A stretch of DNA of 30,850 nucleotides from a virus (Duplodnaviria; Heunggongvirae; Uroviricota; Caudoviricetes): the IMG/VR virus record IMGVR_UViG_2563366976_000009, positions 1-30,850 of that record, one strand, 5' to 3'. How positions within the stretch are numbered: the stretch's first letter is position 1; the number at the start of each line of letters is the position of its first letter. This document shows, one piece after another, positions 1 to 30,850 of the stretch. The notes beneath the pieces are model-generated. The model saw only the letters and a list, made by a program, of their open reading frames with translations. It searched no databases and had not been told where the DNA came from. A program made the translations under genes and the position numbers.

Positions 1-201
1 AAGAGCTGGAAAAACCGTGCAGAAGTGGAACTGGCCACACTCACGTGGGTGGACTGGTATAACAATCGACGATTGCTGGAAAGGCTGGGCCATACTCCTC
101 CGGCAGAAGCAGAAAAAGCTTATTATGCTTCCATCGGAAACGATGATCTGGCAGCCTGAGTTCACAGATAAAATACTCTCCAGGAAACCCGGGGCGGTTC
201 A
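1..201 (+). mobile_element. 3' end of an IS3-family insertion sequence. Frame 1 (1..159) encodes the C-terminal end of an rve-type transposase (…LATLTWVDWYNNRRLLERLGHTPPAEAEKAYYASIGNDDLAA*), followed by the probable right terminal repeat ending near …CCCGGGGCGGTTCA (about 201). Truncated by the window start.
   Basis: Frame-1 translation ends with the WxDWYNNxRxHxxLG-like integrase-core C-terminal motif and a TGA at 157-159. The element boundary is placed where cII-like coding sequence resumes. The ORF-track entry 17..226 is a different, spurious frame. Confidence 0.55.
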
Positions 202-390
202 ATTGGTTGTCATGAATCGAAGATAAGCAGAACGGACTGGCGGTTTATTGCTTCGGTCTTGTGTGCTTTCGGAATGGCATCAGACATCAGTCCAATTAGC
301 AGGGCTTTTAAGTATGCGCTTGATGAAATCACAAAGAAAAAATCCCCGGCCGCCACCGAGGATTTTAAGCAAATTGATATGCAATTCTGA
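202..390 (+). pseudogene. cII: cII-like transcriptional activator, C-terminal fragment only; the N-terminus is replaced by the IS element.
   Basis: The frame open from the IS boundary to TGA 388-390 translates …ESKISRTDWRFIASVLCAFGMASDISPISRAFKYALDEITKKKSPAATEDFKQIDMQF*. This closely parallels the remembered lambda CII C-terminus (…SQISRWKRDWIPKF…TNKKRPAATERSEQIQMEF). Confidence 0.55.
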
Positions 391-422
391 GGGAATTACT
401 GGATCAATCCACAGGAGTAATT

Positions 423-584
423 ATGACAAAACGTCGTAAGAAATACCAGGAAAAAGAAGAGATTCGACACCCTGATTCACCTGAGGGATTAGTGGTAGCC
501 GCAGCAAATAACAGGGCGTTCGCAGAGCGCCTTGTTGGTGTTTACAGACTAGCCAAAGCAGGAGTGAAACATGGGCGTCGTTAA
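423..584 (+). CDS. Hypothetical small basic protein (53 aa) between the cII fragment and the replication initiator gene.
   Basis: ATG 423 preceded by AGGAG; stop at 582-584. No family recognised. Confidence 0.3.
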   Translation: MTKRRKKYQEKEEIRHPDSPEGLVVAAANNRAFAERLVGVYRLAKAGVKHGRR

Positions 585-1461
585 GTTAGCTGATTACAGG
601 CATAACCCTGTACAACATCAGGAGGCATCCAGTATGGGGTATGCCTATATACACCGCCAGTTTATGGACAGCAGGCTCTATAAGGACTCTCAGGCAGTAC
701 ATCTTTGGCTTCACTTAATCCTCAAGGCTAATCACGAATCTACTGTCGTCAATACGGATATCGGGCCGATAACTGTTGATCGCGGTCAGATGATAACTGG
801 ACGCCCGTCGCTGGTCAGAGAAACATTCATCCCCGACAACAAAGTTCGGAGCTTATTACGGACTTTTGAGTCGAAAGGGATGCTTAATATTTGCTCGATG
901 GGGAAGAAATTTAGCCTGTTTACAATCGTTAAATATGACGATTTTCAGGCAAAAAATTGTCCAACGGTTGTCCAACGGTTGTCCAACGCAAACACCAGTA
1001 ATGGCGAGGCTCTCAGCGGAGATTGTCCAACGGTTGTCCAACGGTTGTCCATAAACAATAATATAAATAATATCTCTAATACTGACGTATTAGAGAGTGC
1101 CACAGCAGACAAAAAGTCTGACAAGAAAAAACCTTCCGTTAGCTGTCAGGATGTTGTCGATGCTTACCACGAAATCCTTCCTGAAGCGCCAAGAATCCGC
1201 GCACTGAATGACAAGCGTAAAAACCAGATCCGAACGTTCTGGCGCAAAGCCGGAGTGATAACCCGCCAGCTTGACGGGCATGGGTTCACGATGCAGGACT
1301 GGAGAAATTATTTGAGATACGTAGGCGAAAATTGCCGATGGATGTTCGAAGAGCGCCCAAACCATCAGCGAGGAACCGTCTGGCACAAAAAGGGATTTGA
1401 TTTCCTGCTTAACGATAATACCTACCTGAAAGTTCGTGAGGGTGAACACGATGACCGATAA
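571..1461 (+). CDS. Replication initiation protein, lambda O / P22 gp18-like, containing the origin iterons inside its coding sequence.
   Basis: Position immediately upstream of a DnaB-type helicase; internal iteron array plus AT-rich tract typical of lambdoid ori within the O gene; AGGAG RBS before ATG 571. Confidence 0.7.
   Translation: MGVVKLADYRHNPVQHQEASSMGYAYIHRQFMDSRLYKDSQAVHLWLHLILKANHESTVVNTDIGPITVDRGQMITGRPSLVRETFIPDNKVRSLLRTFESKGMLNICSMGKKFSLFTIVKYDDFQAKNCPTVVQRLSNANTSNGEALSGDCPTVVQRLSINNNINNISNTDVLESATADKKSDKKKPSVSCQDVVDAYHEILPEAPRIRALNDKRKNQIRTFWRKAGVITRQLDGHGFTMQDWRNYLRYVGENCRWMFEERPNHQRGTVWHKKGFDFLLNDNTYLKVREGEHDDR
957..1085 (+). repeat. Origin of replication: two clusters of three direct 11-bp iterons (TTGTCCAACGG, at 957-989 and 1023-1055) followed by an AT-rich unwinding tract (about 1053-1085).
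   Basis: Direct tandem repeats read in the sequence. The arrangement matches the ori-lambda layout (iterons then AT-rich region inside the initiator gene). Confidence 0.7.
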
Positions 1462-2887
1462 TTTTTATGCGCCGCCCCATAGCATCGAGGCAGAGCAGGC
1501 GGTGATTGGTGGATTGCTTCTGGATGATGACAGCAGTGAGCGCGTCCAGAAAGTTCTGGCGATGCTGAAGCCTGATTCATTTTACAGCCGATCACACAAA
1601 ATCCTTTTCGAAGAAATAACCAGAATGCACCGGGAGCAAAAGCCAGTAGATGGCCTGACGCTTTTCGATGAACTGGAGCGTAAATCGTTAACGGCGTCTG
1701 TTGGCGGTTTTGCTTATATCGCTGAGATCGCAAAGAACACGCCGAGCGCCGCAAACATCGTTGCCTATGCAATGCAGGTTCGCGAAACCGCAATGGAACG
1801 CTACGCCATCAACCGCATGACTGAAGCGACGGAATTGCTCTATTCCCGCAACGGAATGACTGCGACGCAGAAGTACGAAGCTATTCAGGCGATTTTCACG
1901 CAACTGACAGACCATGCAAAAACCGGATCGCGTCGCGGCCTTCGCTCATTTGGCGAGGTCATGGAAGACTGGGTTAGCGACCTTGAGAAGCGATTTGACC
2001 CATCAGGCGAACAACGGGGAATGAGCACAGGGATCCCATCGCTGGACAGGATGCTGTCACCGAAAGGTCTGGTGAAAGGCTCTCTGTTTGTCATTGGCGC
2101 TCGCCCTAAGATGGGGAAAACGACGCTATACAGCCAGATGGCAATCAACTGCGCAGTGCATGAGAAAAAGCCCGCTCTGATGTTCAGCCTTGAAATGCCC
2201 GGTGACCAGATACTGGAAAAACTGGTAGGACAGAAGTCAGGTGTTAACCCGAATATTTTTTACCTTCCGGCGACAAATGACGCTGATGACGGCTATCAGG
2301 GTGATTACGATGGTGACTTCAACAGGGCGATCGAAACAGCCAATCGCTTGAGTGAAATCGACCTGCTTTACATCGACGACACGCCGGGATTATCTCTGGC
2401 TCAAATCGTCAGCGAAAGCCGTCGAATCAAGCGAGAAAAAGGATGTGTTGGCATGATTCTGGTCGATTACCTGACACTAATGACCGCTGAAAAGGCCGAT
2501 CGCAACGACCTTGCTTACGGCATGATCACCAAAGGACTGAAGAACCTTGCCAAAGAGCTTGATTGCGTTGTTGTGCTTCTGACACAGCTTAACCGCGCAC
2601 TGGAAAGCCGAACCAATAAACGCCCATTACCAAGTGACTCACGAGATACAGGGCAGATTGAACAGGATTGCGATTATTGGGTGGGGATCCATCGTGAAGG
2701 TGCTTTTGATGACAGCGTTCCTCCTGGTGAAACCGAACTAATCCTTCGCCTCAATCGTCATGGCAATACCGGCACGGTGTATTGCATTCAGGCAAATGGC
2801 GCTATTTATGACACAGACCAACAGTCTGCTGAAATGCGCCGACGTGAACGCGAGGAACCGCAGTCCAAGAAGAAAGGAGGATTCTGA
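1436..2887 (+). CDS. DnaB-family replicative DNA helicase (P22 gene 12-like).
   Basis: 483 aa; Walker A GARPKMGKT and the DnaB N-terminal domain (…AEQAVIGGLLLD…). Alternative ATG start at 1451. Confidence 0.9.
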   Translation: MRVNTMTDNFYAPPHSIEAEQAVIGGLLLDDDSSERVQKVLAMLKPDSFYSRSHKILFEEITRMHREQKPVDGLTLFDELERKSLTASVGGFAYIAEIAKNTPSAANIVAYAMQVRETAMERYAINRMTEATELLYSRNGMTATQKYEAIQAIFTQLTDHAKTGSRRGLRSFGEVMEDWVSDLEKRFDPSGEQRGMSTGIPSLDRMLSPKGLVKGSLFVIGARPKMGKTTLYSQMAINCAVHEKKPALMFSLEMPGDQILEKLVGQKSGVNPNIFYLPATNDADDGYQGDYDGDFNRAIETANRLSEIDLLYIDDTPGLSLAQIVSESRRIKREKGCVGMILVDYLTLMTAEKADRNDLAYGMITKGLKNLAKELDCVVVLLTQLNRALESRTNKRPLPSDSRDTGQIEQDCDYWVGIHREGAFDDSVPPGETELILRLNRHGNTGTVYCIQANGAIYDTDQQSAEMRRREREEPQSKKKGGF

Positions 2888-3156
2888 TGAATAAAAAACA
2901 ATTAGCCATTCTCGAAAAGGCATGGGATGCACAAATATCATGCGCTTTGAAAGAACAGGCACTACCAATAATCCAGACCAAATCGAAAATAGCCAGGCAG
3001 TTATGCGATGACGGATTCCTGAACGAAGTTGAGATTACGCGCCAGATGGTAACGTTCAAAGGGTATGAGATAAATCATCATGGTATAGCGGCGTATTGCT
3101 CCCATCTTCCTGATGACGTTGACATTGATGAAATGGAAAGGGAGATGAAGCAATGA
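2887..3156 (+). CDS. Hypothetical nin-region protein (89 aa).
   Basis: ORF start overlaps the helicase stop; no family recognised. Confidence 0.4.
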   Translation: MNKKQLAILEKAWDAQISCALKEQALPIIQTKSKIARQLCDDGFLNEVEITRQMVTFKGYEINHHGIAAYCSHLPDDVDIDEMEREMKQ

Positions 3157-3245
3157 CTATCTACATCACTGAGCTTGTAACAGGCCTGCTGGTAATCGCA
3201 GGCCTTTTTATTTGGGGGAGAGTAATTGGAGGATTTAAGAAATGA
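3153..3245 (+). CDS. Possible 30-aa single-pass membrane peptide (MTIYITELVTGLLVIAGLFIWGRVIGGFKK).
   Basis: ATG overlaps the upstream stop (ATGA) and its own stop overlaps the next ATG (ATGA), suggesting translational coupling. One hydrophobic helix followed by a basic tail. Confidence 0.25.
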   Translation: MTIYITELVTGLLVIAGLFIWGRVIGGFKK

Positions 3246-3457
3246 GTACGATAGCTGAGCTTGTCAGGGCTAATTTTCGTGAAGAGTTGGTGCGTTGGTA
3301 TCGGTATCGTTCATCGTCAAGTTTGCCGCTTGATGAGTTGTATGAGCATTCACCTGCCGCACGACGCTATCCGCGTGACCGTGTTCTTCGGCGGTTGTTC
3401 AGACTCAACAATGAGTTTCAGCGCAACAGAATTATCCGGAGTCTGGATTTAAAGTGA
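3242..3457 (+). CDS. Hypothetical Arg-rich protein (71 aa).
   Basis: ORF in operon context; no family recognised. Confidence 0.35.
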   Translation: MSTIAELVRANFREELVRWYRYRSSSSLPLDELYEHSPAARRYPRDRVLRRLFRLNNEFQRNRIIRSLDLK

Positions 3458-3467
3458 AGGAGTGAGC

Positions 3468-3704
3468 ATGAGCGACCTATCATTAACCCAGCCAAAGCTA
3501 AAAGAATGTCCGTTTTGCGGCGGTAATGCTCGTCTGTGGGTTGAGGCCGGAATAAATATTGATGTGTGGGGCTATGCAGAATGTGACCTCTGTGAAGCCA
3601 GGGGGGCATGGGCACCATCAGTTGCTGCGGCGGCTGAAAAATGGAACCGGAGAGCAGGAGATGAAGCAAACCTTTCTGCTTCGCAACGAAGCAATCAGAA
3701 ATAA
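3468..3704 (+). CDS. Lar-family restriction-alleviation protein (Rac prophage Lar-like).
   Basis: Translation contains CPFCGG … C-x2-C … WNRRA, resembling Lar; AAGGAG RBS 5 nt upstream of ATG 3468. Confidence 0.5.
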   Translation: MSDLSLTQPKLKECPFCGGNARLWVEAGINIDVWGYAECDLCEARGAWAPSVAAAAEKWNRRAGDEANLSASQRSNQK

Positions 3705-4107
3705 CGCCATAGACGCAATACTCTCACTTCCCATCGACGACAAGTCACCCCACGAAGTCCACGTTAAAGAATCCAAGCGTAGCAAAGCGCAGAATGACCG
3801 TATGTGGCCGATGCTGAACGATGTTTCGCGTCAGGTGCTATGGCATGGTCAACGGCTGGCGCCGGAAGACTGGAAAGACCTGTTCACTGCCCTGTGGCTT
3901 AAGACCAAAAAACTGGAGCAACGAAGTGTGCCTGGTATCGACGGTGGCGTTGTCATGCTTGGCGTGCGTACCAGCAAAATGCGAAAGGCCAGCATGACTG
4001 AGCTTATCGAAATCATGTTTTGGTTCGGCTCAGAGCGCAACGTGCGGTGGAGTGATGACTCCCGGCGAGAGTATGAATGGTCACAACGAACAGGGAGGGA
4101 GGCATGA
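3661..4107 (+). CDS. ninB: NinB recombination protein.
   Basis: MKQTF…DQNRxxW…DVSRQVxWHG…SDD… matches remembered lambda NinB along its length. The ORF-track start at 3559 is an upstream extension. Confidence 0.85.
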
Positions 4108-4286
4108 GGCGACAGCGACGAAGTTTCACCGACATCATCTGCGAAAACTGCAAATACCTTCCAACGAAACGCTCCAGAAATAAACGCAAGCCAATCCCAA
4201 AAGAATCTGACGTAAAAACCTTCAACTACACGGCTCACCTGTGGGATATCCGGTGGCTAAGACATCGTGCGAGGAAAACAAGGTGA
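4104..4286 (+). CDS. ninE: NinE protein.
   Basis: [60 protein letters not shown], near-identical to remembered lambda NinE. ATGA overlap with ninB. Confidence 0.85.
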
Positions 4287-4462
4287 TTGACCAAAATCGA
4301 AGTTACGAACAAGAAAGCGTCGAGCGGGCTTTAACGTGCGCTAATTGCGGTCAGAAGCTGCATGTGCTGGAAGTTCACGTGTGTGAGCGTTGTATATATG
4401 AATGCTTAAATATGGTGGAACATAATGAGAAATATAAGCAACATAGACGAATTAAGAAATAA
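4283..4462 (+). pseudogene. ninF: ninF interrupted by an insertion. The N-terminal 37 codons are NinF-like ([37 protein letters not shown]), then the frame runs into unrelated sequence inside the inserted HNH gene.
   Basis: GTG start overlapping the ninE stop (GTGA). Similarity to lambda NinF stops abruptly after …HVCERC at about 4395. Confidence 0.7.
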
Positions 4463-4931
4463 ATTATCATATGATGATGTTTTAGGTGTACTTAGATGGA
4501 AAGTGTCTCCTTCTAATAATGTTAAGGTTGGCAGTGTTGCTGGTTACATTAGGAGTGATGGTTATAGGATGTTAACTATCGATGGTGTAATTACTTATGC
4601 TCACCACGTTATATGGATGATAAATAATGGTGAGATTCCATTAGGGTATAAAATTGATCATATAAATGGAGTAAGGTCAGATAATAGGCTATCTAATCTT
4701 CGATTGGTTACACACCAACAGAATGCACAGAACCAAAAGAGAAAAATAACCAATTCGTCAGGAGTGACTGGAGTATATTTCAATAAAGAGAGATGCAAGT
4801 GGATTGCGAATATATGCGTAGATGGGCGCACCAAATATCTTGGAATATTTGCTAGCATCATTGACGCTATTGCAGAAAGGAAGAGGGCAGAAAAAGAACT
4901 GGGTTTTCATGAAAACCATGGCAGACCATAA
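4425..4931 (+). CDS. HNH endonuclease with C-terminal AP2-type DNA-binding domain (free-standing homing-endonuclease-like), inserted within ninF.
   Basis: HNH motif …IDHINGVRSDNRLSNLRLVTHQQNAQN; AP2-like segment SGVTGVYFNKERCKWIANICVDGRTKYLGIF. Confidence 0.8.
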   Translation: MRNISNIDELRNKLSYDDVLGVLRWKVSPSNNVKVGSVAGYIRSDGYRMLTIDGVITYAHHVIWMINNGEIPLGYKIDHINGVRSDNRLSNLRLVTHQQNAQNQKRKITNSSGVTGVYFNKERCKWIANICVDGRTKYLGIFASIIDAIAERKRAEKELGFHENHGRP

Positions 4932-6967: not shown

Positions 6968-7480
6968 ATGAAAGAAATAAAATTAACGCCAGAAATGGTG
7001 CTTTCTGTTGTTGATTACAATCCATCATCAGGCGACTTTCACTGGAGATGGAGGCAGGGGAGAGAGAGGACCACTTTGACATGGAACTCTCGTTTTGCTT
7101 TCAAGAAATGCTCATCAATAAATTCTGATGGGTATTTAATGATTATGATTAATGGTAAAGCATGCCCTGCTCACAGACTGGCATGGTTGATTGTTTATGG
7201 CACCATGCCCGATGGTTTTATTGATCACATCAACAGGGTAAGAACAGATAACCGGATATCAAATCTTCGTCTTGTCACTCATTCCGAAAATATGCAAAAC
7301 AGGAAAATTCAGAAGAATAATAAATCTGGATACCGTGGCGTGTCTTGGGATGCTAAGTACGGGAAATGGAGAGCAAGAATTAATGCGTCTGGAAAGTGTA
7401 TTAACCTTGGATACCATGACACTGCCGAACTTGCCGCTGCGGCTTTTGAGGCAGCCAGAATGAAATATCATACCGTTTAA
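6968..7480 (+). CDS. Second HNH endonuclease with AP2-type domain, paralogous to the one in ninF.
   Basis: …IDHINRVRTDNRISNLRLVTHSENMQN… and YRGVSWDAKYGKWRARINASGKCINLGY; RBS AAGG before the ATG. Confidence 0.8.
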   Translation: MKEIKLTPEMVLSVVDYNPSSGDFHWRWRQGRERTTLTWNSRFAFKKCSSINSDGYLMIMINGKACPAHRLAWLIVYGTMPDGFIDHINRVRTDNRISNLRLVTHSENMQNRKIQKNNKSGYRGVSWDAKYGKWRARINASGKCINLGYHDTAELAAAAFEAARMKYHTV

Positions 7481-24170: not shown

Positions 24171-24560
24171 TTAACATTTTCTTTTTACTTTTCCAACAAA
24201 AGCTTTGGTTGAATCCATATTCCCATAACCAGAAATGGTTTTTGACATTAAAACTGTTCCAGTAGGATGTATTACCCATGAGTCGATAACGCGTTGAGTT
24301 TCGCCATTCGCGCCGATTCCTATGATGGAGTTTTTAGACAATGCTTTGTAAGCCATGCCGTCCGCATCTGTCCCAGAATATGTGATGCTGGCATCTTCAC
24401 CGCTTGTCTTAATGATGAATGTTCCACTAAAACCATCTTCTTCCGGATGGAAATTATTTCGTTCTGAATAGCTTATTCCGCGCATATCTCCAACGACCCA
24501 GCACTCTGCTGTAGCCCCAAAAGATATGAATAAGAACATAGCAGCAAGAAATTGCTTCAC
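24171..24560 (-). CDS. Secreted (signal-peptide) protein of unknown function, about 129 aa, in the cargo island.
   Basis: GTG start with AAGGAG RBS 6 nt upstream on the minus strand. N-terminus MKQFLAAMFLFISFGATA/ECW… is a signal-peptidase-I type signal. One Cys near the mature N-terminus and one at the extreme C-terminus. Confidence 0.5.
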   Translation of the reverse strand: MKQFLAAMFLFISFGATAECWVVGDMRGISYSERNNFHPEEDGFSGTFIIKTSGEDASITYSGTDADGMAYKALSKNSIIGIGANGETQRVIDSWVIHPTGTVLMSKTISGYGNMDSTKAFVGKVKRKC

Positions 24561-24590
24561 ACCAAGCTCCTTAGTTTTGAGCAGGATACC

Positions 24591-24956
24591 ATGAAAAAAG
24601 TTAACATTGGAAACGTACCAAAGATGCTCGTTCCGCTCTTTGAGAGCGGTACAATTGTGTTTTGTAGAGACTTTCCAGAATGGCAACGCCTGCATCAAAA
24701 ACTTGGCGTTGACGTGCATGACTCGGACGCCAACGGAGCGTCTCATACAATGAGCAGCGAGAATGGTGTTTTGCATGTGATAGGCGTGTTCAATGGCAAA
24801 CTATCTACTATTGCCCATGAGTGCGCTCACATGGCATTCGATATCTGCTCAAGGGTCGGTGTTGATGTTGAACCAGGAAGAGCCAATGAGACTTACTGCT
24901 ACTTAATGAGCAGGCTTGTTGAGTTCTGCGAGCGACATATCAAAAAGCCGGAGTGA
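24591..24956 (+). CDS. Small HExxH protein (121 aa), putative zinc metallopeptidase of the ImmA/IrrE (M78)-like type.
   Basis: Motif STIAHECAHMAFD followed about 14 residues later by E…ANE. Divergent from the secreted-protein gene, with only about 30 bp between start codons. Confidence 0.45.
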   Translation: MKKVNIGNVPKMLVPLFESGTIVFCRDFPEWQRLHQKLGVDVHDSDANGASHTMSSENGVLHVIGVFNGKLSTIAHECAHMAFDICSRVGVDVEPGRANETYCYLMSRLVEFCERHIKKPE

Positions 24957-25559: not shown

Positions 25560-26096
25560 TCAAACAACCCACCAGTTTGCCTGATTGGATACCAGCCTTG
25601 CAGTTTTTATGGAATTAATTATGCCATGCTCAAGAGCCTTGTTAGCATCCAAAATGGTCGAGTCTGCTATCAGGGATGCCCACCTAATATGGGTTCCGAT
25701 GTCGATATTGAACGTCTCAACGAAGCGATCAAGATCGTTATCGAGGCATTTCCCGTACTCTCTCAATCTGGCATGGTCGGCGGCTGGGGAGGCAAAGCAC
25801 CATAATAGAGGATGTAACAGGAATCTTGATAATGGGTTTGCGAAACGTTCTGAGCCAGCCAGGAAAACGATATTAGCTATGGATTCAACATTGCTTATGT
25901 TGTGAGTTCTAACGGTAACAGGGAGTGACTTAAGAAAGTTATACGCAGTAAAGCCAGCGGCAGTTTCCCCTCCCTGACTTGATATATGGATATTTAATTC
26001 AGTTGCGCCTTGAGATAATGCGGTGAGACAGTGGTTCTGAAGTTGCCCAACAGTGGCAGTGTTAACGGGGCATAAGAAATGAATTGTGTGCAGCAT
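25560..26096 (-). CDS. ClpP-fold (Clp protease-like) serine protease, 178 aa, translationally coupled to mnt.
   Basis: …IHISSQGGETAAGFTAYNFLKSLPVTVRTHNISNVESIANIVFLAGSERFANPLSRFLLHPL… aligns with the ClpP core (INSPGG…TAG…GQAASMG…LPNSRxMIHQP). The Ser and His positions appear conserved. Its ATG overlaps the mnt stop (TAATG). Confidence 0.6.
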   Translation of the reverse strand: MLHTIHFLCPVNTATVGQLQNHCLTALSQGATELNIHISSQGGETAAGFTAYNFLKSLPVTVRTHNISNVESIANIVFLAGSERFANPLSRFLLHPLLWCFASPAADHARLREYGKCLDNDLDRFVETFNIDIGTHIRWASLIADSTILDANKALEHGIINSIKTARLVSNQANWWVV

Positions 26097-26350
26097 TATT
26101 TATCATCCTTGCCATAAATCTTTTTAAGTGTCTCAAACACAACGGCCTTGAACTGCTCTGCTTGCTGATCAGCCAAGCGTTCAGCTTCGTCTCGATAGCC
26201 TGCAATCGGTGATGGCTTTGAGAGAGCATCCTGAACGATTTGTAATAACTCAGAGTTCATTGACCTTCCGTTAGCCTCTGCTCTTAATTTCAATTTTTCT
26301 CTTACTTCCAAAGGCATACGGAAGTTAAAGTGCGGATCGTTTCTAGCCAT
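26096..26350 (-). CDS. mnt: Mnt repressor (ribbon-helix-helix), P22 Mnt-like.
   Basis: MARNDPHFNFRMPLEVREKLKLRAEANGRSMNSELLQIVQDALSKPSP… near-identical to remembered P22 Mnt. Confidence 0.85.
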   Translation of the reverse strand: MARNDPHFNFRMPLEVREKLKLRAEANGRSMNSELLQIVQDALSKPSPIAGYRDEAERLADQQAEQFKAVVFETLKKIYGKDDK

Positions 26351-27904: not shown

Positions 27905-30850
27905 ATGAGAGACATTACAGCCAATGTGATCGTATCGATGCCTTCGCAACTCTTCACTATGGCGCGTTCTTTTAAAGCCGTAGCCAATGGCAAAATTTAT
28001 ATCGGTAAAATTGACACTGACCCTGTAAATCCTGAAAACCAGATTCAGGTTTATGTGGAAAACGAAGACGGCTCTCACGTTCCTGTTTCGCAACCAATCA
28101 TCATTAACGCTGCTGGATATCCTGTATATAACGGACAGATTGCCAAATTCGTAACTGTGCAAGGCCATTCTATGGCTGTTTATGATGCGTATGGTGCGCA
28201 GCAGTTCTATTTTCCGAATGTGCTGAAGTATGATCCTGATCAGTTACGGCGGCAATTAGAAGACCCAGATGGAGCGAATAAATACCCAAAACTTCAGATA
28301 GCAAGATGGAGAGACAGTTATGATGTAAGAGGTTGGGGGGCTATTGGTGATGGTGTTCATGATGATACATCAGCTCTATCAGAATTACTTTCTGTTGCAA
28401 CAGGTGGTGAAAAGATAGATGGGCGAGGGCTTACTTTTAAAGTATCAAATCTTCCGGATGTCAGTCGATTTAAAAATGCTCGTTTTTTATTTGAGAGAAT
28501 ACCGGGTCAGCCTCTTTTTTATGCTTCTGAAGATTTTATCCAGGGAGAGTTATTTAAAATTACAGATACACCGTGGTACAACGCCTGGACGCAGGATAAA
28601 ACGTTTGTATATGACAATGTCATCTATGCGCCTTTTATGGCTGGAGACCGCCATGGTGTAAATAACCTCCATGTTGCATGGGTTCGCTCAGGAGATGACG
28701 GGAAGACCTGGACAACGCCGGAATGGCTTACAGATTTACATGAAAACTATCCCACAGTTAACTATCACTGCATGAGTATGGGGGTTGTCAGAAATCGCCT
28801 TTTTGCTGTAATTGAGACGCGGACCGTGAGAGGAAATAAACTGCAGGTTGCAGAGTTGTGGGATCGCCCAATGAGTCGCAGCCTTCGCGTTTATGGTGGT
28901 ATAACGAAAGCAGCAAATCAGCAAGTCGCTTATATTCGCATTACTGATCACGGATTATTTGCTGGTGATTTTGTCAACTTCTCAAACTCTGGTGTTACAG
29001 GTGTTACCGGGAATATGACGGTGACTACTGTTATTGATAAAAATACTTTTACAGTTACGACGCAAAATACCCAGGATGTGGATCAGAATAACGAGGGTAG
29101 ATACTGGAGTTTTGGTACATCATTTCACTCGTCACCATGGAGAAAAACCAGTCTTGGAACTATTCCTTCTTTTGTTGACGGAAGCACTCCTGTTACTGAG
29201 ATTCACAGTTTTGCGACGATTAGCGATAACAGTTTTGCTGTTGGCTACCATAATGGTGATATTGGTCCACGCGAGCTTGGGATACTCTATTTCTCTGATG
29301 CTTTCGGTTCTCCTGGTAGCTTTGTTCGCAGACGCATACCTGCAGAATATGAGGCGAATGCATCTGAGCCATGTGTAAAATATTATGATGGCATTCTGTA
29401 TCTGACGACCAGGGGGACATTAAGTACTCAACCCGGTAGTTCATTGCACAGAAGCTCTGATTTAGGTACATCATGGAATTCTCTTCGCTTCCCAAATAAT
29501 GTTCATCACTCAAACCTTCCTTTTGCCAAAGTTGGCGATGAGCTGATTATTTTTGGCAGTGAGCGCGCATTTGGTGAGTGGGAAGGAGGAGAACCTGATA
29601 ACCGTTATGCAGGAAATTATCCAAGAACATTTATGACCAGAGTTAACGTCAATGAGTGGAGTCTGGATAATGTAGAGTGGGTTAATGTTACTGATCAGAT
29701 TTATCAGGGCGGAATAGTTAACTCTGCGGTTGGTGTTGGTTCAGTTTGTATCAAAGACAACTGGCTGTACTACATTTTCGGTGGGGAAGACTTTCTAAAC
29801 CCATGGAGCATAGGGGATAACAACAGAAAATATCCTTATGTTCACGATGGTCACCCGGCTGATTTATATTGTTTCAGGGTGAAAATCAAACAGGAAGAAT
29901 TTGTTTCAAGGGATTTTGTCTACGGAGCCACTCCTAACAGAACGCTTCCTACTTTGATGTCGACGTCAGGCGTGAGGACGGTTCCTGTACCCGTTGATTT
30001 CACAGATGATGTTGCCGTCCAGTCACTGACTGTCCATGCAGGTACATCAGGACAAGTTCGCGCGGAAGTCAAACTTGAGGGTAATTACGCCATTATTGCG
30101 AAGAAAGTACCGTCTGATGATGTTACCGCTCAGAGATTAATCGTTAGCGGCGGTGAAACAACGTCTTCAGCAGATGGTGCAATGATAACGTTGCATGGTT
30201 CCAGAAGCAGTACTCCACGTCGCGCGGTATATAACGCACTCGAACATCTTTTTGAGAACGGAGATGTTAAACCTTATCTTGATAATGTAAATGCTCTTGG
30301 TGGTCCGGGAAACAGGTTCTCGACAGTTTATCTTGGCTCCAATCCTGTGGTTACCAGTGACGGAACATTAAAGACAGAGCCGGTCTCTCCTGACGAAGCA
30401 TTGCTGGATGCCTGGGGTGACGTCAGGTATATCGCTTATAAATGGCTGAACGCTGTCGCTATAAAGGGGGAAGAAGGGGCGAGGATACATCATGGTGTAA
30501 TCGCGCAGCAACTTCGTGATGTTCTTATTTCTCACGGACTCATGGAAGAAGAAAGCACAACATGCCGCTATGCCTTTCTTTGCTATGACGATTATCCCGC
30601 AGTATATGATGACGTCATTACTGGCCAAAGGGAAATGCCGCTGACTGATAATGACGGGAGCATCATTGTTGATGAGGATGATAATCCAGTGATGGTAATG
30701 GAAGACATCATTGAGCGCGTTGAAATAACGCCAGCAGGATCTAGATGGGGGGTCAGACCTGATCTCTTATTCTATATCGAGGCGGCATGGCAGCGCAGAG
30801 AAATGGATAAGATAAAAGCTAGGTTAGACTTAATAGAAGGGAAGCACTAA
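27905..30850 (+). CDS. Tailspike: N-terminal P22-type head-binding domain fused to an endosialidase (endo-N-acetylneuraminidase) with a C-terminal intramolecular chaperone domain.
   Basis: N-terminus [11 protein letters not shown]…[38 protein letters not shown]…[15 protein letters not shown]…NVLKYDPDQ matches remembered P22 gp9 residues 1-110. GDGVHDDT motif, two Asp-boxes (SGDDGKTW near 28687-28710; SSDLGTSW near 29450-29475), and a C-terminal …[12 protein letters not shown]…[15 protein letters not shown]…WGVRPDLLF…AAWQRR… chaperone domain, as in K1-phage endosialidases. Stop codon at the last 3 nt of the window. Confidence 0.85.

What the first reader, a model, noticed from the sequence alone, without database searches (positions are those of the whole stretch)
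1..390. IS3-family element inserted into the cII-like gene
The transposase 3' end and terminal repeat are followed directly by an open frame encoding only the C-terminal part of a CII-like activator, with no N-terminus or start codon. Loss of CII would impair establishment of lysogeny by this phage. It may also indicate that the prophage early region is decaying while cargo and late genes remain intact.
Basis: partly seen in the sequence, partly recalled or inferred. Interest (0 to 1): 0.45.

Follow-up and report, generated by a model that had tools for sequence, protein, structure and literature searches.

The report
IS629 inserted in prophage cII gene
A well-known mobile element (IS629) has recently inserted into the cII lysogeny-control gene of a resident E. 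coli prophage; the event is real and precisely defined but ordinary.

Summary
Window 1-201 is the right end of IS629 (IS3 family): the last 52 codons of transposase OrfB, stop at 157-159, and a terminal inverted repeat ending ...GGCGGTTCA at 201. Window 202-390 is codons 37-98 plus stop of an HK97/Stx-phage-type cII gene; it matches Pfam Phage_CII positions 33-90 only and has no usable start. I found the source scaffold (GCA_000351465.1, KB732669.1), which has 0 mismatches with the window over 11,461 nt. The window starts one base after a 575-N assembly gap inside the IS. Upstream lie the IS left end, cII codons 1-37, and intact cro, cI and N. A 3-bp direct repeat, ATT, flanks the IS. A second assembly carries the same prophage without the IS: 100% identical over 8,678 nt on the left, 1 mismatch in 8,490 nt on the right, and a single ATT. 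This is therefore a recent, simple transposition, not a deletion, and there is no sign of wider decay of the early region. CII is split between the two helices of its DNA-binding motif and is almost certainly null. I infer that prophage maintenance is unaffected and that released phage would lysogenise poorly. The host prophage is P22-like, related to CUS-3, with a K1 endosialidase tailspike. Novelty and interest are low.

The parts
1..201 (+). Right-hand 201 nt of an IS629 copy (IS3 family). The rest of the element lies upstream of the window, partly in a scaffold gap.
   Evidence: 200 of 201 nt are identical to the copy annotated 'insertion sequence: IS3 family IS629' in LC567824. Thousands of near-identical copies occur in E. 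coli genomes.
1..159 (+). 3' end of IS629 orfB (transposase): the last 52 codons plus the TGA stop at 157-159.
   Evidence: The translation is identical to the IS629 OrfB C-terminus. It gives weak sub-threshold matches to the Pfam integrase-core tails rve_3 and rve_2, as expected for a 52-aa fragment.
174..201 (+). Right terminal inverted repeat (IRR) of IS629, ending ...GGTTCA.
   Evidence: 25 of 28 positions match the left-end repeat TGAACCGCCCCGGGAATCCTGGAGACT of the same element in the source scaffold.
202..204 (+). Right copy of the 3-bp target-site duplication ATT (cII codon 37). The left copy lies just before the IS left end, outside the window.
   Evidence: The source scaffold reads ...AAGATGATT|TGAACCGCC...GGCGGTTCA|ATTGGTTGT. 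The empty site in L012 and in phage 1717 reads AAGATGATTGG with one ATT. The two blastn blocks overlap by exactly 3 nt in the IS-free prophage.
202..390 (+). 3' fragment of the cII-like gene: codons 37-98 plus TGA at 388-390. It has no start codon or ribosome-binding site.
   Evidence: It matches Pfam Phage_CII at E=8.7e-19, profile positions 33-90 only. It is 99.2% nt identical to cII of phage 1717, Nil2, 2851 and others. Joined to the upstream 37 codons it gives a 98-aa protein identical to the intact CII of L012.
330..420 (-). Probable oop-like antisense RNA overlapping the 3' end of cII, untouched by the insertion. Its intrinsic terminator lies at 366->339 and is followed by a T-run. The limits given are approximate.
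   Evidence: The terminator-like site has a 12-bp stem and a T-run. The strand folds into two hairpins at -30.4 kcal/mol, z = -3.8, with 0 of 200 shuffles folding as well. Window 338-430 is far better conserved with lambda 38600-38700 than the rest of cII. That this stretch of lambda encodes the oop RNA and its terminator is from my own knowledge. No Rfam family matched.

Best explanation
A copy of IS629 transposed into the cII gene of a resident P22-like, CUS-3-related prophage of E. coli. IS629 is a 1,310-bp IS3-family element. As general knowledge of the family, it uses a DDE transposase made by a -1 frameshift between orfA and orfB and moves by copy-out/paste-in. It landed between codons 37 and 38 in the same orientation as cII, and duplicated the 3-bp target ATT. 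The first three bases of the IS (TGA) stop the 5' fragment right after codon 37, which leaves a 37-aa peptide. The 3' fragment (window 202-390) has no start codon. The break aligns with lambda CII residue 33. From my recollection of the lambda CII structure, that position lies between the two helices of the helix-turn-helix, so neither fragment should bind DNA or tetramerise, and the phage is cII-null. Shown: the anatomy, the duplication, the empty-site allele and the recency of the event. Inferred from lambda biology: CII is needed only to establish lysogeny, by activating PRE, PI and PaQ. Prophage maintenance by cI from PRM and induction would therefore be unaffected, but released virions would lysogenise new hosts very poorly, with a clear-plaque phenotype. 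The IS also lies in the rightward early transcript between cro/nutR and the replication genes. It may be somewhat polar on the O-like gene, the helicase, the nin genes and Q, although N antitermination would be expected to read through it. The most economical view is a recent hit that is neutral for the lysogen.
For: IS identity: searches show 176/176 nt at the left end and 200/201 nt at the right end identical to an annotated 1,310-bp IS629. Junction and cII fragment. Source scaffold: searches show 0 mismatches over 11,461 nt. Left junction, cII codons 1-37 and the TGA supplied by the IS. The ATT duplication and the empty site in a near-identical prophage (GCA_958310775.1): searches show 8,678/8,678 nt on the left and 8,489/8,490 nt on the right. 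IS629 makes 3-4 bp duplications, and 62% of its copies in O157 genomes lie in prophages (PMC3271280). IS629 is a main driver of variation among Stx prophages (PMC4587872). Homology to lambda CII, which has solved structures 1XWR, 1ZPQ and 8IGR, and alignment of the break to lambda residue 33. No strong intrinsic terminator in the sense strand of IS629. No outward promoter-like site in window 1-700.
Against: The middle of the IS is not sequenced in the source scaffold. The gap is 575 N, whereas about 932 nt are expected, so a full-length intact IS629 is assumed, not shown. All functional consequences are inferred from lambda and not tested for this phage: the null phenotype, normal maintenance, poor lysogenisation and the degree of polarity. 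The exact junction was found in only one assembly. It is absent from 5,426 complete E. coli genomes and from IMG/VR viral contigs, so it cannot be cross-checked in an independent gap-free assembly.
Confidence: 0.93

Rival explanations
1. IS-associated deletion or IS-IS recombination. Under this reading the IS abuts an orphan 3' piece of cII, and the 5' part of cII, possibly with cro and cI, has been lost. This would mark a degraded, immunity-deficient prophage remnant.
For: Within the window alone, only the 3' part of cII is visible. This architecture does exist elsewhere. In E. coli E2865 and about 25 other complete genomes, an IS629-type element joins a truncated sieB directly to cII codon ~11, with cI and cro missing.
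Against: In the source scaffold the 5' 37 codons of cII sit directly at the IS left end. A 3-bp duplication flanks the element. cro, cI and N are all present. The flanks are collinear with, and identical to, an IS-free prophage.
Confidence: 0.02
2. The gap hides something other than a single IS629. Possibilities are an internally deleted IS, a composite of two IS629 copies carrying extra DNA, or a scaffolding error that joined two different IS629 copies.
For: 575 N replace the interior of the element. The implied total length, 953 nt, is shorter than 1,310 nt.
Against: Gap sizes in draft scaffolds are estimates. The two ends are in the correct relative orientation. They flank exactly complementary halves of one gene, with a 3-bp duplication typical of IS629. 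A chance mis-join of two unrelated IS copies would not produce these features.
Confidence: 0.04
3. The insertion is not neutral but selected as a step of prophage domestication. By knocking out cII and being polar on replication and late genes, it would reduce productive induction or spread while the host keeps prophage cargo.
For: The IS lies in the PR operon upstream of all replication and late-control genes. IS629 insertions are common in prophages.
Against: The allele occurs in a single assembly and its flanks are identical to the IS-free prophage, so there has been no time or spread to indicate selection. IS629 has no strong sense-strand terminator. A putative nutR (boxA/boxB read by eye in L004 8430-8500) lies upstream, so N-modified transcription should pass through. 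No other lesion is seen in the prophage.
Confidence: 0.06

Closest known systems
IS629 copies in Stx and other lambdoid prophages of E. coli O157:H7 (for example the annotated copy in Stx2a phage Stx2_499, LC567824)
   Same: It is the same element, with 376 of 377 visible nt identical. It is 1,310 bp, belongs to the IS3 family, has TG...CA ends and makes 3-4 bp target duplications. It preferentially resides in prophages and interrupts phage genes.
   Different: Here the target is cII of a P22-like, CUS-3-related K1 prophage, not an Stx phage. The papers I read (PMC4587872, PMC3271280) list insertions in roi, lysozyme, methyltransferase and other genes, but not in cII.
Classical lambda polar mutants r14 (IS1 in cII) and r32 (IS2 in the cII-O region). 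This is from my own knowledge; I could not retrieve a paper.
   Same: An insertion sequence lies in or next to cII within the PR operon, upstream of the replication genes. It inactivates cII or is polar on O and P, and the polarity is relieved by N.
   Different: The IS family differs (IS1 and IS2 versus IS629). Those were laboratory-selected mutants of lambda, whereas this is a natural allele in a wild prophage. No phenotype has been measured here.
sieB'-IS629-cII' junction of E. coli E2865 and about 25 other complete genomes, and the IS629-type insertion in the 3' end of cro in Z1323CEC0013
   Same: An IS629-type element in the same orientation lies within a few hundred bp of the same cII allele.
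   Different: The insertion points differ: cII codon ~11, and the cro 3' end. The E2865 type has lost cI and cro, so it is a deletion or recombination product. The window's event is a clean simple insertion with a duplication.
Phage lambda CII (PDB 1XWR, 1ZPQ, 8IGR) and HK97/HK022-type CII
   Same: The reconstructed 98-aa protein is a full-length Phage_CII family member (E=6e-32). It is 35% identical to lambda CII, including the conserved C-terminal KKxPAATE...Q(I/M)xF tail.
   Different: In this genome the gene is split after codon 37, and only residues 37-98 are encoded in the window.
Phage CUS-3 of E. coli K1 RS218
   Same: It has P22-like late genes. The tailspike combines a P22 head-binding domain with endosialidase domains. 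The ant/mnt/tailspike region is 95.8% nt identical.
   Different: It is mosaic: only about 41% of window 202-25000 aligns to CUS-3. The early region is of the HK97/Stx-phage type.

Membership tests
IS629 (IS3 family) | At least 95% nucleotide identity to a reference IS629 (the isoform criterion) | tested here: met
   Left end 176/176 nt and right end 200/201 nt are identical to the copy annotated IS629 in LC567824. Only 377 of 1,310 nt are visible.
IS629 (IS3 family) | Imperfect terminal inverted repeats ending 5'-TG...CA-3' | tested here: met
   IRL is TGAACCGCCCCGGGAATCCTGGAGACT. IRR is its complement, ending ...GGCGGTTCA at window 201. 25 of 28 positions match.
IS629 (IS3 family) | 3-4 bp direct target-site duplication | tested here: met
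   ATT is present on both sides in the source scaffold and once in the empty site. The 3-4 bp range is given in PMC3271280.
IS629 (IS3 family) | Two overlapping reading frames, orfA and orfB, with a -1 programmed frameshift and a DDE (rve) catalytic domain; total length 1,310 bp | tested here: inconclusive
   The orfA start (MTKNTRFSPEVRQ...) and the orfB C-terminus are present and identical to IS629. The frameshift site and the DDE core fall in the 575-N scaffold gap. Pfam rve_3 and rve_2 hits on the 52-aa tail are below cut-off.
Phage_CII (PF05269) transcriptional activator | Significant match to the family profile | tested here: met
   Window 202-387 scores E=8.7e-19 and 68 bits against a cut-off of 21.3.
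Phage_CII (PF05269) transcriptional activator | Complete protein including the N-terminal helices and the helix-turn-helix | tested here: not met
   Only profile positions 33-90 of 91 are encoded in the window. The intact allele covers 1-90. The missing 37 codons lie on the other side of the IS. The locus is therefore a disrupted cII gene, not a functional member.
Phage_CII (PF05269) transcriptional activator | Activates PRE-, PI- and PaQ-type promoters and is degraded by FtsH | not testable with these tools
   This needs genetics or biochemistry. It is inferred only from homology to lambda CII.
oop-like antisense RNA of lambdoid phages | Short transcript antisense to the 3' end of cII, ending in an intrinsic terminator inside cII | tested here: met
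   A terminator-like hairpin with a T-run lies at 366->339 on the minus strand. The strand gives a stable two-hairpin fold with z = -3.8. The block conserved with lambda is shown.
oop-like antisense RNA of lambdoid phages | Own promoter (Po) in the cII-O intergenic region | tested here: inconclusive
   The strict consensus scan found no promoter in 1-700. By eye, an extended -10 (TGtCATAAT) lies on the minus strand at about 428-420, overlapping the ATG at 423, and it is conserved with lambda. No Rfam family exists to test against.

The most novel reading that the evidence does not exclude
The IS629 hit could have a phenotype worth studying. It may turn a K1-capsule-specific temperate phage into a variant that is still inducible but cannot re-lysogenise, effectively a naturally virulent K1 phage released from a lysogen. 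Alternatively, through polarity on replication and Q, it may be the first step of locking the prophage and its cargo into the host. The evidence excludes neither reading, because no expression or phage-production data exist.
Probability: 0.1. Interest if true: 0.3.

Novelty: already known. Interest (0 to 1): 0.12.

Why it matters
It matters little beyond annotation. The result gives an exact, base-resolved description of a strain-specific IS629 insertion allele, with the target ATT after cII codon 37, together with its empty-site counterpart. It also corrects the impression that the prophage early region is eroding. Practically, the locus should be annotated as a cII pseudogene interrupted by IS629. 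The strain could also provide a natural cII-null derivative of a K1-specific, CUS-3-like phage. More generally, it is one more example of IS629 diversifying otherwise identical prophages.

Tried and rejected
- **Exact junction in complete E. coli genomes.** I searched 5,426 complete genomes with a 600-nt and a 122-nt query. None carries the junction. The best hits are two-piece matches in which an IS629-type element sits at other positions near cII.
- **Exact junction in viral contigs.** A 32-nt junction search of IMG/VR gave 0 hits.
- **Rfam scan.** I scanned window 1-1500 at E<=1. It returned only two chance-level hits (a snoRNA and a Brucella sRNA). No family exists for an oop-like RNA.
- **Outward promoter from the IS end.** The promoter scan found none in window 1-700.
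- **Literature on lambda r14/r32.** Two searches for IS insertions in lambda cII found nothing in the held library. That comparison therefore rests on my own knowledge.
- **In-frame fusion of transposase or IS sequence to the cII fragment.** I rejected this. Stops at 157-159 and 169-171 intervene, and there is no ATG, GTG or TTG in frame between 172 and 258.
- **Deletion model.** I rejected this once the source scaffold showed the 5' half of cII and the duplication.
- **Searches not run.** I did not use the metagenome or genome-representative scans. The source and an empty-site twin had already been found.

Full report
**What is in the window.** Frame 1 of window 1-159 encodes ...WVDWYNNRRLLERLGHTPPAEAEKAYYASIGNDDLAA and stops at 157-159. 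The sequence then runs to ...CTCTCCAGGAAACCCGGGGCGGTTCA, ending at 201. From 202 the same frame reads IGCHESKISRTDWRFIASVLCAFGMASDISPISRAFKYALDEITKKKSPAATEDFKQIDMQF and stops at 388-390. Stops at 157-159 and 169-171 separate the two coding pieces. No ATG, GTG or TTG lies in frame between 172 and 258. Downstream come a 53-codon ORF (423-584), an O-like replication gene with iterons (571-1461) and a DnaB-type helicase (1436-2887).

**Identity of the two pieces.** Window 202-600 is 99.2% identical at the nucleotide level to the cII / small ORF / O region of Stx2 phage 1717, Nil2, 2851, YYZ-2008 and others, and 98% identical to HK97. In phage 1717, cII is annotated at locus positions 2393-2689 and the match begins at 2501. 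Window 202 is therefore the first base of codon 37 of a 98-codon gene. Pfam gives Phage_CII (PF05269) at E=8.7e-19 for the fragment, but only profile positions 33-90 of 91. An intact allele covers 1-90 at E=6e-32. The intact protein is 35% identical to lambda CII, which has solved structures 1XWR, 1ZPQ and 8IGR. The break aligns with lambda residue 33. From my recollection of the lambda structure, that is between the two helices of the helix-turn-helix.

Window 1-201 matches thousands of places in E. coli genomes that are annotated 'IS3 family transposase'. Against a 1,310-bp copy annotated 'insertion sequence: IS3 family IS629' in Stx2a phage Stx2_499 it is identical at 200 of 201 nt, and the OrfB tail is identical.

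**Finding the other side.** An exact-sequence look-up of the O-like protein returned ten loci. One of them, L004 (NCBI GCA_000351465.1, scaffold KB732669.1), contains the junction. It is identical to the window at all 11,461 comparable positions. The window begins one base after a 575-N scaffold gap, so L004 is the source or an identical assembly. On the far side of the gap lie 176 nt of IS629 left end (TGAACCGCCCCGGGAATCCTGGAGACT..., including the orfA start). These are 176/176 identical to the annotated IS629.

Immediately to the left is cII from its ATG through codon 37...CTGGCAAAGATGATT|TGAACCGCC. The right junction reads GGCGGTTCA|ATTGGTTGTCATG. Intact cII reads AAGATGATTGGTTGTCATG. ATT is thus present once in the empty site and twice around the IS, which is a 3-bp target-site duplication. 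IS629 is reported to duplicate 3-4 bp (PMC3271280). The annotated reference copy carries a 4-bp duplication. The IS's own first triplet, TGA, terminates the 5' fragment, giving MERTSYSKLSQRDVDRAETDLLINLSTLTQRGLAKMI*. Removing the IS and one ATT restores a 98-aa CII identical to that of L012.

**Recency and state of the prophage.** L012 (GCA_958310775.1) carries the same prophage without the IS. L004 1-8678 aligns to L012 957-9634 at 100% identity. L004 9632-18121 aligns to L012 9632-18121 with one mismatch. The two blocks overlap in L012 by exactly the three bases ATT. The insertion is therefore very recent relative to any other change.

Upstream, gene calls for cro, a cI-type repressor (HTH plus Peptidase_S24), an N-type antiterminator, sieB, cIII, kil and recombination genes are all present in L004, as in the IS-free relatives. 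Downstream, the window shows an unbroken series:
- the nin region, Q and the lysis genes;
- small and large terminase, portal, scaffold and coat;
- head-completion and injection genes, and ant;
- a tailspike that runs off the end of the window.

I see no evidence of general decay of the early region. The exact junction is absent from 5,426 complete E. coli genomes and from IMG/VR viral contigs. It looks like a private allele.

**How it most likely works.** The shown facts are as follows:
- a simple IS629 transposition into cII, in the same orientation as the gene;
- a 3-bp duplication;
- both halves of cII retained but separated;
- a 37-aa N-terminal peptide;
- a start-less C-terminal fragment.

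The following is inferred from established lambda biology. CII is required only after infection, to activate PRE (cI), PI (int) and PaQ, so an established prophage does not need it. The lysogen should be stable and inducible, but progeny phage should lysogenise poorly.

The IS also sits in the rightward early operon, downstream of a putative nutR that I read by eye in L004 8430-8500 (boxA-like CGCTCTTTGTAACAA and a boxB-like hairpin TCGCT-GAAA-AGCGA). It lies upstream of the replication genes. A full-length IS629 shows only one weak sense-strand terminator-like site, at the level expected by chance. No outward promoter-like site occurs in window 1-700. I therefore expect modest, N-suppressible polarity. 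This parallels the classical lambda r14 (IS1) and r32 (IS2) insertions in the cII region. That comparison is from my own knowledge, because searches for papers found nothing.

**The other strand.** The 3' end of the cII fragment and the intergenic region (window ~338-430) are much better conserved with lambda (38600-38700) than the rest of cII. On the minus strand there is a 12-bp hairpin followed by a T-run (366->339). The 91-nt minus-strand stretch 420->330 folds into two hairpins at -30.4 kcal/mol, with z = -3.8. This corresponds to the lambda oop antisense RNA and its terminator (from my own knowledge). The IS insertion leaves it intact. No Rfam family covers it.

**Uncertainties.**
- The interior of the IS is an assembly gap of 575 N, where about 932 nt are expected. 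Its integrity, and the assumption that the gap holds only IS629, are therefore unproven. Even so, matching ends, correct orientation, complementary halves of cII and the duplication make a mis-join very unlikely.
- The tools did not give the organism name of the source assembly. All close matches are E. coli.
- No phenotype has been measured.

**Comparison and verdict.** This is a known element (IS629) doing a known thing, interrupting a prophage gene. IS629 is documented as a major source of variation among otherwise identical prophages, and 62% of its copies in O157 genomes lie in prophages (PMC4587872; PMC3271280). Its speculation about early-region decay is not supported. Novelty: already known. 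Interest: low.

Noticed in passing
window 27905-30850 (runs off the end): The tailspike combines a P22-type head-binding domain with endosialidase domains (End_N_terminal, beta-propeller, beta-barrel, tail_spike, Peptidase_S74 chaperone). The ant/mnt/tailspike region is 95.8% nt identical to phage CUS-3 of E. coli K1 RS218. The prophage is therefore a K1-capsule-specific, CUS-3-like P22-like phage.
   Followed up: partly
window 25560-26350, minus strand: A 178-aa Clp-protease-like ORF (PF00574, E=2e-11) is preceded by an 84-aa ORF (26096-26350). Both sit in the immI-like region between the injection genes and ant. Phage phiv205-1 annotates a 'head maturation protease' in this stretch. It could be cargo or a defence or exclusion module. 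Function not examined.
   Followed up: no
window 24171-24776, minus strand: A 201-aa ORF with no Pfam match lies directly after the last injection-protein gene, in the position of sieA in P22.
   Followed up: no
window ~950-1055, inside the O-like gene (571-1461): There are five copies of TTGTCCAACGG: three in tandem, then a 36-bp spacer, then two more in tandem. These are the probable origin iterons bound by the O-like initiator.
   Followed up: no
window 4425-4931 and 6968-7480: Two HNH_3-type homing-endonuclease-like ORFs, the second with an AP2 domain, are inserted in the nin region and after Q. Some relatives lack the first one, for example L009.
   Followed up: no
L004 6546-6562 and L012 7502-7518 (outside the window, between N and a DUF2335 gene): A 17-nt exact copy of the IS629 right tip (AAACCCGGGGCGGTTCA) is present in both the IS-bearing and the IS-free prophage. 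It may be a scar of an older IS629 event or a chance match.
   Followed up: partly
L003 (E. coli E2865, NZ_AP018808) 2673-4469 and L002 (Z1323CEC0013) 2730-4696: Other E. coli genomes carry IS629-type elements at different points next to the same cII allele. In E2865 and about 25 other genomes the IS joins a truncated sieB to cII codon ~11, cI and cro are missing, and RefSeq annotates a 108-aa 'CII family' ORF that starts inside the IS. In Z1323CEC0013 the IS sits in the 3' end of cro. This may reflect a regional preference or just IS629 abundance.
   Followed up: partly
L004 8855-9429: The window's first base lies one nucleotide after a 575-N scaffold gap in the source assembly. The window's left edge is therefore an assembly artefact, not a biological boundary.
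   Followed up: yes
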